A DNA stretch of 27,896 nt from Escherichia coli (GTDB lineage Bacteria; Pseudomonadota; Gammaproteobacteria; Enterobacterales; Enterobacteriaceae). A program made the position numbers and the translations under genes. The DNA lies in NCBI RefSeq assembly GCF_003334255.1, contig NZ_QOWU01000061.1. One strand, written 5' to 3'. The notes under the pieces are model-generated. The model saw only the letters and a program-made list of their open reading frames with translations, was not told the origin of the DNA and ran no database searches. This document shows, piece after piece, positions 1-3,436 of this stretch; position 1 is the first letter of the stretch; each line of letters begins with the position of its first letter.

Positions 1-263
1 ACGCGAGGCATCGTCTTAACGAGGCACCGAGGCGTCGCATTCTTCAGATGGTTCAACCCTTAAGTTAGCGCTTATGGGTAAACCCCCGGGCGCGTTCCTT
101 TATCAAGATGACGTTCGAATATTCCGGCAGGTGCAGTTTGTTTATTCCAGAAAGGCGTTGAGCGCGTATGAATATAATTCTGTGGGATTTGAAGCATCCT
201 TTTCCCTCCTTCGGTGAATGCGCTGAAAACGGTTTATTCCAGCCGTTTCAGGGTACGCCTGAT

Positions 264-283
264 AATTTGCATTTTAAATACCA
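264..283. promoter_or_regulatory. Near-palindromic AATTTGCATTTTAAATACCA resembling an NsrR operator (probable yeaR-yoaG promoter region downstream of leuE)
   Basis: Imperfect 11-1-11 inverted repeat similar to the NsrR consensus as I recall it; the position fits the region between leuE and the next minus-strand gene (yeaR in K-12). Motif match by eye only. Confidence 0.3.
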
Positions 284-369
284 TTTATTGGTTACTTTTT
301 AGCACCATATCAGCGAAGAATCAGGGAGGATTATAGATGGGAAGCCCGCGACAACGCGGGCTGAAAGCA

Positions 370-1109
<740 letters not shown>

Positions 1110-3292: not shown

Positions 3293-3436
3293 TTCGTTCT
3301 TTGCAGTAAATAACCTGCGTCATTTCACCTTTTATTGTTTCCGTTTCGTGTTTTATGGCTTTCCGTATTCTTAATTGTTTAATTTATGTAACATGCAAAT
3401 TTTGTTACGCGTACGTTAGGTTCCGCCGTACAGGTA

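What the first reader, a model, noticed from the sequence alone, without database searches (positions are those of the whole stretch)
200..300. NsrR-like operator in the leuE-distal spacer, probable yeaR-yoaG promoter
AATTTGCATTTTAAATACCA (264-283) resembles the NsrR 11-1-11 inverted repeat. If correct, the nitrosative-stress regulated promoter of the next gene leftwards lies within the first 300 bp of the window. The only minus-strand frames open to the left edge begin at or before position 59, which would imply a long 5' UTR.
Basis: inference. Interest (0 to 1): 0.2.

Follow-up and report, generated by a model that had tools for sequence, protein, structure and literature searches.

The report
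Known NsrR operator of yeaR promoter
The flagged sequence is the already described binding site for the nitric-oxide-sensing repressor NsrR inside the nitrate-activated yeaR-yoaG promoter of E. coli, so it is real but ordinary; the only twist is that here the yeaR gene it controls has been cut by an IS186 insertion element.

Summary
The 20-mer is at 264-283 exactly as quoted. It is part of a 23-bp 11-1-11 inverted repeat (264-286). Its reverse complement, AAATGGTATTTAAAATGCAAATT, is letter for letter the yeaR NsrR site listed for E. coli CFT073.

- **Chance:** a matrix built only from other, ChIP-positive NsrR sites scores it 21.8 bits. That is the best hit in the 27.9-kb window (next 9.4), with about 0.005 expected by chance.
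- **Position:** it overlaps the published NarL 7-2-7 site (279-294, centred at -43.5). This puts the operator centre at -32, over the -35 hexamer.
- **Conservation:** the NarL, NsrR and -10 block is conserved in 26 yeaR loci from Escherichia, Citrobacter, Salmonella and Silvania, while the flanks diverge.

The secondary inference is wrong. yeaR starts at ATG 197, giving a 5' UTR of about 46 nt, not a long one. No frame reaches the left edge because yeaR is cut after codon 41 by IS186/IS421, whose end fills 1-76. This is a known recurrent insertion, present in 255 of 5426 complete E. coli genomes.

Novelty: already known. Interest: low.

The parts
264..286 (-). NsrR operator, an 11-1-11 inverted repeat. 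On the yeaR sense strand it reads AAATGGTATTT-A-AAATGCAAATT and spans about -43 to -21, centred at -32.
   Evidence: The sequence is. It is identical to the yeaR site in Table 4 of PMC5320621. It scores 21.8 bits, the best hit in the window, with 0.005 expected by chance. The best matrix hit falls at the equivalent position in all 26 orthologous loci.
279..294 (-). NarL 7-2-7 activator site TAACCAATAAATGGTA, centred at -43.5. It shares 8 bp (279-286) with the NsrR operator.
   Evidence: PMC10853779 gives the identical sequence and its position. It is an exact match in 20 of 26 orthologous loci.
273..278 (-). Inferred weak -35 hexamer TTTAAA, lying inside the NsrR operator.
   Evidence: I placed it 17 bp upstream of the -10 hexamer, counting from the published NarL centre at -43.5. 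PMC10853779 calls the -35 element 'intrinsically weak'. The consensus promoter scan finds nothing here, as expected for an activator-dependent promoter.
250..255 (-). Inferred -10 hexamer TACCCT (TAACCT in Citrobacter and Salmonella).
   Evidence: The position follows from the -43.5 reference. Mean majority-base identity across 27 sequences is 0.90.
243..243 (-). Inferred transcription start (G), within 1-2 nt.
   Evidence: Calculated from the NarL site centre at 286.5 being -43.5. It was not measured here.
198..242 (-). 5' UTR of about 46 nt. It contains a 5'-terminal hairpin (243-237 pairs with 228-222) and the Shine-Dalgarno sequence AGGAGG (210-205).
   Evidence: The RNA fold gives -12 kcal/mol, z = -2.0.
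72..197 (-). N-terminal stump of yeaR: 41 native codons, then TAA at the IS junction.
   Evidence: The ORF is listed. DNA identity to MG1655 yeaR runs down to window 75. RefSeq marks it as an incomplete DUF1971 pseudogene.
1..76 (.). Right end of IS186/IS421, ending in the terminal repeat ...AACCCTTAAGTTAGCGCTTATG. It is followed by one copy of the target duplication at 77-85.
   Evidence: Alignment to strains Dam/Dcm and 300709, where an IS421-family transposase sits between the two yeaR halves. The other junction shows the duplication GGGTAAACCC.
343..362 (-). GC-rich hairpin AGCCCGCG-TTGT-CGCGGGCT, 8 nt after the leuE stop. It is probably the leuE terminator or insulator at the upstream edge of the yeaR control region.
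   Evidence: The sequence is. The stem is kept with compensatory changes in Citrobacter and Salmonella. It has no T-tract and the terminator scan did not flag it.
370..1008 (-). leuE, the leucine exporter; the upstream neighbour on the same strand.
   Evidence: The ORF is and the RefSeq annotation.

Best explanation
Window 264-286 is the NsrR operator of the sigma-70 yeaR-yoaG promoter, which reads leftwards on the minus strand.

How it works: the promoter is intrinsically weak (-35 TTTAAA, -10 TACCCT) and is switched on by phospho-NarL bound to the 7-2-7 site at 279-294, centred at -43.5. The NsrR dimer, an Rrf2-family [4Fe-4S] repressor, binds the 23-bp inverted repeat centred at -32. That repeat covers the -35 hexamer and shares 8 bp with the promoter-proximal NarL heptamer. 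Bound NsrR should therefore exclude RNA polymerase sigma region 4 and compete with NarL. Nitric oxide nitrosylates the cluster, NsrR leaves the DNA, and the promoter becomes available to NarL and RNA polymerase. The operon thus integrates nitrate/nitrite (through NarX/Q-NarL) with NO (through NsrR).

What is shown here: the sequence identity, the statistical strength of the motif, its position relative to the published NarL site, and cross-genus conservation.

What comes from the literature: NarL binding and activation, and NsrR dependence of yeaR expression.

What is inferred: steric occlusion and competition as the mode of repression, and the exact start site.

In this genome the promoter is intact, but its gene is cut after codon 41 by IS186. 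It now drives a 41-codon stump and transcription into the IS.
For: - The sequence is at the stated place.
- Its reverse complement is identical to the yeaR entry of the CFT073 NsrR site table, PatSer ln(P) -17.05.
- An independent matrix scores it 21.8 bits, best in the window, with 0.005 expected by chance.
- Window 75-420 is 100% identical to MG1655 from the leuE 3' end through the spacer into yeaR.
- The NarL site TAACCAATAAATGGTA at -43.5 is described, and seen bound by NarL in a 3.2 A cryo-EM complex, in PMC10853779. This places the operator centre at -32.
- In an alignment of 26 yeaR loci from four genera, mean majority-base identity is 0.88 over the operator and 0.90 over the -10 hexamer. 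It is 0.45 in the 36 bp upstream and 0.72 in the UTR.
- Every ortholog has its best NsrR matrix hit (12.5-23.8 bits) 73-84 bp before the ATG, and the second-best hit never exceeds 7.0 bits.
- The promoter-proximal half-site lies in the -35/-10 spacer, where core promoter function does not demand sequence. It varies only as AAATGCAAATT, AAATGCCAGTT, AAATGCATATT, AAATGTATATT, AAATATATATT and similar, which stays within the NsrR motif.
- In three Citrobacter loci and in Silvania the NarL site has diverged, yet the NsrR score stays at or above 20.7 bits.
- Within E. coli, the 57-bp core is identical in 4553 of 5416 genomes, against 1625 of 5418 for the whole spacer.
- PMC5320621 states that yeaR is known to be regulated by NsrR, and reports yeaR and yoaG induced about 160-fold in nitrate-grown CFT073.
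- From my own memory, not readable here: the abstract of Lin, Bledsoe and Stewart 2007 (PMID 17720788) documents the NsrR operator centred at -32.
Against: - No NsrR ChIP-seq peak was found at yeaR in CFT073. The authors regard this as a false negative.
- The promoter-distal half-site (AAATGGTATTT) is a poorer match to the motif and overlaps the NarL heptamer, so its conservation cannot be credited to NsrR alone.
- The primary papers with the mutational and footprint evidence (Lin 2007, Squire 2009) could not be read.
- The start site and the -35 and -10 hexamers are placed by arithmetic from the -43.5 figure. PMC4549865 quotes -38 to -47 for the NarL site, a discrepancy of about 1 bp.
- The compared genera are close relatives, so their sequences are not independent observations.
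Confidence: 0.92

Rival explanations
1. The inverted repeat is not a working NsrR site. The AT-rich block is conserved because it carries the NarL proximal heptamer, a Fis site and the -35 hexamer, and any NsrR effect on yeaR is indirect.
For: There is no ChIP-seq peak at yeaR in CFT073. Eight of the 23 bp belong to the NarL site, and the -35 hexamer lies inside the repeat. From memory, Squire et al. 2009 report a Fis footprint overlapping the NarL site; I could not read that paper.
Against: The promoter-proximal half-site lies in the -35/-10 spacer, outside the NarL site, and is still kept within the NsrR motif in all 26 orthologs. The 21.8-bit score comes from a matrix trained on other sites and is expected 0.005 times per window. 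PMC5320621 cites yeaR as an NsrR-regulated gene and treats the missing peak as a false negative.
Confidence: 0.05
2. In this IS186-bearing allele the operator and promoter are a relic that no longer controls anything useful. The site is an intact sequence with no surviving function in this strain.
For: yeaR is cut after codon 41. About 1.3 kb of IS186 separates the promoter from the rest of yeaR and from yoaG.
Against: The promoter and operator are base-for-base identical to those of MG1655, so binding and regulated initiation should be unchanged. Whether transcripts read through IS186 into yoaG was not tested. This is a statement about output in one strain, not about what the site is.
Confidence: 0.03

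Closest known systems
NsrR operator of the E. coli K-12 and CFT073 yeaR-yoaG promoter (Lin, Bledsoe and Stewart 2007; Filenko et al. 2007; Table 4 of PMC5320621)
   Same: It is the same locus. The 23-mer, the NarL site, the spacer and the first 41 codons are identical to MG1655, and the 23-mer is identical to the CFT073 table entry.
   Different: Nothing differs in the control region. Downstream, yeaR is interrupted by IS186/IS421 in this genome.
Canonical NsrR 11-1-11 operators of ytfE, hcp and hmp
   Same: All have two 11-bp half-sites inverted around one central base, and the AT-rich AAnATGCATTT-type motif.
   Different: The yeaR site is more degenerate in its distal half (AAATGGTATTT), which doubles as the NarL proximal heptamer. 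It scores 21.8 bits, against 30.7 for the best training site. It had no ChIP-seq peak in CFT073, whereas ytfE, hcp and hmp did.
ogt promoter, the other NarL-dependent, FNR-independent promoter
   Same: NarL alone activates from a 7-2-7 site abutting the -35 element.
   Different: ogt needs two NarL sites (-44.5 and -77.5), while yeaR needs one. The papers I read describe no overlapping NsrR operator at ogt.
IS186 hot-spot insertions, such as the lon promoter in E. coli B and yeaR in evolved MG1655
   Same: The insertion is in a GGG(N)CCC-type GC-rich target with a 10-bp duplication, GGGTAAACCC. IS186 insertion into yeaR was seen repeatedly in laboratory evolution (PMC6307192).
   Different: The window has one G fewer at the IS-target junction than the two genomes aligned with it, and all 25 listed best matches over 1-1100 are at 99.9% rather than 100%.

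Membership tests
NsrR (Rrf2-family) 11-1-11 operator | A 23-bp unit of two 11-bp half-sites in inverted orientation, separated by 1 bp, matching the NsrR weight matrix | tested here: met
   It scores 21.8 bits with a matrix from 16 ChIP-positive sites that excludes yeaR. It is the best hit in the window, with 0.005 expected.
NsrR (Rrf2-family) 11-1-11 operator | Position overlapping core promoter elements of the regulated gene, so that binding represses | tested here: met
   The site spans about -43 to -21 relative to the start site derived from the published NarL centre at -43.5, and it covers the inferred -35 hexamer. The position is calculated, not measured.
NsrR (Rrf2-family) 11-1-11 operator | Site retained at the same place in orthologous promoters | tested here: met
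   All 26 yeaR loci have their best matrix hit (12.5-23.8 bits) 73-84 bp upstream of the ATG, within a conservation island flanked by divergent sequence.
NsrR (Rrf2-family) 11-1-11 operator | Physical binding by NsrR (EMSA, footprint or ChIP) | not testable with these tools
   The published CFT073 ChIP-seq found no peak at yeaR, which the authors regard as a false negative. The primary paper with the operator analysis is not held.
NsrR (Rrf2-family) 11-1-11 operator | NsrR-dependent, NO-responsive expression of the downstream gene | not testable with these tools
   From the literature only. PMC5320621 states that yeaR is known to be NsrR-regulated, and reports about 160-fold induction of yeaR and yoaG in nitrate-grown cultures.
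NarL 7-2-7 activator site of the yeaR promoter | The sequence TAACCAATAAATGGTA just upstream of the -35 element | tested here: met
   It is an exact match at window 294-279 on the minus strand.
IS186/IS421 (IS4 family) insertion | Terminal inverted repeat, a short GC-rich target duplication and an IS4-family transposase between the gene halves | tested here: met
   The terminal repeat is at window 55-76. The duplication GGGTAAACCC flanks the element in strains with the same junction. An IS421-family transposase is annotated between the yeaR halves. The transposase itself lies outside the window.

The most novel reading that the evidence does not exclude
In the IS186-disrupted allele, the intact NarL- and NsrR-controlled promoter fires leftwards into IS186, antisense to its transposase gene. 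Nitrate or NO could then modulate IS186 transposase expression. If transcription reads through, it could also keep yoaG inducible without YeaR. The recurrence of this insertion (255 of 5426 genomes, plus laboratory and mouse-gut evolution) could reflect selection for loss of YeaR rather than a mere target hot spot.
Probability: 0.1. Interest if true: 0.35.

Novelty: already known. Interest (0 to 1): 0.08.

Why it matters
It matters little as a discovery. The yeaR-yoaG promoter is a textbook case of overlapping nitrate (NarL) and nitric oxide (NsrR) control. It has served as the scaffold for a NarL-RNA polymerase cryo-EM structure and as a trigger in gut biosensor screens. The useful correction concerns annotation of this window: the regulated gene is a pseudogene here, split by IS186 at a recurrent hot spot, so in this strain the promoter's normal output (YeaR, and probably YoaG) is lost or altered.

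Tried and rejected
- **Primary papers not held.** I tried to read Lin et al. 2007 by PMC id and by PubMed id, and Squire et al. 2009 by DOI. Neither is held. The '-32' operator centre and the Fis footprint therefore rest on my memory plus my own arithmetic.
- **No scaffold sequence.** The supplement of PMC10853779 is not held as text, so I could not read the authors' -35, -10 and start-site assignments directly.
- **Promoter and terminator scan.** The consensus sigma-70 scan of 1-1200 found no promoter. That fits an activator-dependent weak promoter but gives no independent support for my hexamers. The terminator scan did not flag the leuE-proximal hairpin.
- **5' UTR structure.** RNAalifold on 21 UTRs predicted no consensus structure. 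Single-sequence folds show a 5'-proximal hairpin in most lineages, but the z-scores are only -0.8 to -2.7, and Silvania has none. I do not claim a conserved RNA element.
- **Rfam.** It found nothing in 1-1200 at E <= 1.
- **Plus-strand ORFs.** I considered and dropped the ORFs at 168-302 and 214-336 as genes. They are short mechanical ORFs across a known promoter, and nothing is annotated there in RefSeq.
- **Second-best NsrR hit.** The next matrix hit in the window (3379-3401, 9.4 bits) is below the mean best score of random surrogates (12.1) and was not pursued.

Full report
**Observation.** Three further bases complete a 23-bp 11-1-11 inverted repeat, AATTTGCATTT-T-AAATACCATTT (264-286). 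To test whether the resemblance to NsrR sites exceeds chance, I took the 16 distinct 23-mers that had an NsrR ChIP-seq peak in E. coli CFT073 (Table 4 of PMC5320621), left yeaR out, and built a palindromic weight matrix. I scanned the whole window with it. The site scores 21.8 bits, within the range of the training sites (13.2-30.7). The next best position in 27.9 kb scores 9.4. In 200 first-order Markov surrogates the mean best score was 12.1, and the expected number of hits at or above 21.8 bits was 0.005 per window.

**Genes around it.** The ORF at 370-1008 on the minus strand is leuE. A 41-codon minus-strand ORF at 72-197 begins MLQIPQNYIHTRSTPFWNK.... Window 75-420 is 100% identical to E. 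coli K-12 MG1655 from the 3' end of leuE, through the 172-bp spacer, into the first 41 codons of yeaR, and homology stops abruptly at 75 (MG1655 annotation). Megablast of 1-1100 finds the whole stretch in many complete E. coli genomes. In strains Dam/Dcm and 300709, RefSeq annotates yoaG, a yeaR C-terminal pseudogene fragment, an IS4-like IS421-family transposase, a DUF1971 N-terminal pseudogene fragment, then leuE. Window 1-76 is therefore the right end of IS186/IS421, ending ...AACCCTTAAGTTAGCGCTTATG. The two junctions in those strains show a 10-bp target duplication, GGGTAAACCC. The window has one G fewer at the junction than the two genomes I aligned, which puts a TAA stop directly after codon 41.

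No minus-strand frame reaches the left edge from above position 59 because the gene is broken, not because the 5' UTR is long. The yeaR ATG is at 197-195, preceded by AGGAGG at 210-205.

**Anatomy of the control region.** PMC10853779 describes the yeaR promoter and solved a cryo-EM structure on it. A single NarL 7-2-7 site, TAACCAATAAATGGTA, is centred at -43.5, just upstream of an intrinsically weak -35 element. That 16-mer is at window 294-279 on the minus strand. Counting from its centre (286.5 = -43.5) gives:
- the start site at the G of window 243;
- a -10 hexamer TACCCT at 255-250;
- a -35 hexamer TTTAAA at 278-273, with a 17-bp spacer;
- a 5' UTR of about 46 nt.

These positions are my arithmetic, not measurements. 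PMC4549865 quotes -38 to -47 for the NarL site, which is about 1 bp different. On this numbering the NsrR repeat spans -43 to -21 and is centred at -32. This agrees with my recollection of the abstract of Lin, Bledsoe and Stewart 2007 ('NsrR operator centered at position -32'), a paper I could not open. The operator contains the whole -35 hexamer and shares 8 bp (279-286) with the promoter-proximal NarL heptamer. A simple sigma-70 consensus scan finds no promoter in 1-1200, as expected for an activator-dependent promoter.

**Identity with the known site.** The reverse complement of 264-286, AAATGGTATTTAAAATGCAAATT, is the exact sequence listed for yeaR among the 27 predicted 11-1-11 NsrR sites of CFT073 (PatSer ln P -17.05). 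The same paper says yeaR is known to be regulated by NsrR, citing Lin et al. 2007. It reports yeaR and yoaG among the most induced genes in nitrate-grown cultures, at about 160-fold. It also notes that no ChIP-seq peak was seen at yeaR, which the authors regard as a false negative.

**Comparative evidence.** A scan of one genome per species with the MG1655 YeaR protein returned 26 usable loci. They came from Escherichia (coli, albertii, whittamii and others), many Citrobacter, Salmonella enterica subsp. arizonae and diarizonae, and Silvania. I aligned 200 bp upstream of the ATG. The result shows one conservation island, TAACCAATAAATGGTATTTnAAATGnnnnTTnTnAGGCGTAnCCT, flanked by sequence that has diverged almost to randomness. 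Mean majority-base identity by region:
- NsrR operator: 0.88
- NarL-only part: 0.91
- -10 hexamer: 0.90
- 36 bp upstream of the NarL site: 0.45
- 5' UTR: 0.72

In every ortholog the best NsrR matrix hit (12.5-23.8 bits) lies at the homologous position, 73-84 bp before the ATG, and the second-best hit is never above 7.0 bits. The promoter-proximal half-site lies between the -35 and -10 hexamers, where promoter function itself puts little constraint on sequence. It changes only within the NsrR motif (AAATGCAAATT, AAATGCCAGTT, AAATGCATATT, AAATGTATATT, AAATATATATT, AAATGCTGTTT). In three Citrobacter loci the NarL site has become TGCCCCTTTTGGTGTA, and in Silvania it is largely gone, yet the NsrR score stays at or above 20.7 bits. 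This argues that the repeat is kept for its own sake and not only as part of the NarL site. Within E. coli, the 57-bp core (244-300) is identical in 4553 of 5416 genomes, while the whole 172-bp spacer is at least 99% identical in only 1625 of 5418. One caveat applies: these genera are close relatives, so the sequences are not independent.

**Mechanism.**
- *Shown here:* an intact, statistically strong, conserved NsrR-type inverted repeat overlapping the -35 region and the NarL site of the yeaR promoter.
- *From the literature:* NarL-P bound at -43.5 recruits RNA polymerase through the alpha C-terminal domain and is sufficient for activation without FNR. NsrR is an NO-sensitive [Fe-S] repressor that recognises 11-1-11 repeats. 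yeaR responds to NsrR, nitrate and NO.
- *Inferred:* NsrR on -43 to -21 blocks sigma region 4 at the -35 hexamer and competes with NarL for the shared 8 bp. NO releases NsrR, so full expression needs both NO (derepression) and nitrate or nitrite (activation). From memory, Squire et al. 2009 (not readable) add Fis displacing NarL in rich medium.

**State in this genome.** The promoter is untouched, but it now precedes a 41-codon stump followed by IS186. In the strains with the same junction, the IS186 transposase gene is on the opposite strand to yeaR. Transcription from the promoter would therefore enter the IS antisense to the transposase. Whether it reaches the yeaR 3' fragment and yoaG is unknown. 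The same IS-yeaR junction is present in 255 of 5426 complete E. coli genomes, including K-12 derivatives (Dam/Dcm, ET12567), although MG1655 lacks it. IS186 insertion into yeaR arose repeatedly in MG1655 lines evolved under antibiotics (PMC6307192). yeaR was also a parallel mutational target in the mouse gut (PMC4674774). It is a known hot spot.

**Other checks.** Rfam finds nothing in 1-1200. The predicted mRNA begins with a hairpin (243-237 pairs with 228-222; whole-UTR fold -12 kcal/mol, z = -2.0). Other genera have a hairpin of different sequence at the same place, but RNAalifold finds no consensus and the z-scores are modest, so I only note it. A GC-rich hairpin at 343-362, 8 nt after the leuE stop, is kept with compensatory changes across genera. 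It probably ends the leuE transcript, although it lacks a T-tract.

**Verdict.** The main interpretation, an NsrR operator in the yeaR-yoaG promoter, is correct and is already in the literature. Novelty: already known. Interest: low.

Noticed in passing
window 1-85: This is the right end of IS186/IS421, inserted in yeaR after codon 41, with the target duplication GGGTAAACCC. The same junction occurs in 255 of 5426 complete E. coli genomes. The window has one G fewer at the junction than the two genomes I aligned with it, which creates a TAA stop directly after codon 41. This could be a real variant or a homopolymer sequencing error.
   Followed up: partly
window 343-362 (minus strand): A GC-rich hairpin, AGCCCGCG-TTGT-CGCGGGCT, lies 8 nt after the leuE stop. 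The stem is kept with compensatory changes in Citrobacter and Salmonella (GGCCCGT/ACGGGCC, GACCCGC/GCGGGTC). There is no T-tract after it, and the terminator scan did not flag it. It is probably the leuE terminator insulating the yeaR promoter.
   Followed up: partly
window 222-243 (minus strand): The predicted yeaR mRNA starts with a 7-bp hairpin (GCUGGAA...UUUCAGC). Citrobacter and Salmonella orthologs carry a hairpin of different sequence at the same position. RNAalifold found no consensus structure, and single-sequence z-scores are modest (-0.8 to -2.7). It may be an mRNA-stabilising 5' stem-loop.
   Followed up: partly
L009, L017, L026 (Citrobacter sedlakii and two C. amalonaticus-like genomes), about 85-100 bp upstream of yeaR: These three loci lack the leuE coding end and hairpin that sit upstream in the other loci. 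Their NarL site has diverged to TGCCCCTTTTGGTGTA, which still looks like a 7-2-7 site, while the NsrR repeat is retained at about 21 bits.
   Followed up: no
window 3379-3401: This is the second-best NsrR matrix hit in the window, TTAATTTATGTAACATGCAAATT at 9.4 bits, just after the end of dmlA. It is below the mean best score of random surrogates (12.1), so it is most likely chance.
   Followed up: no
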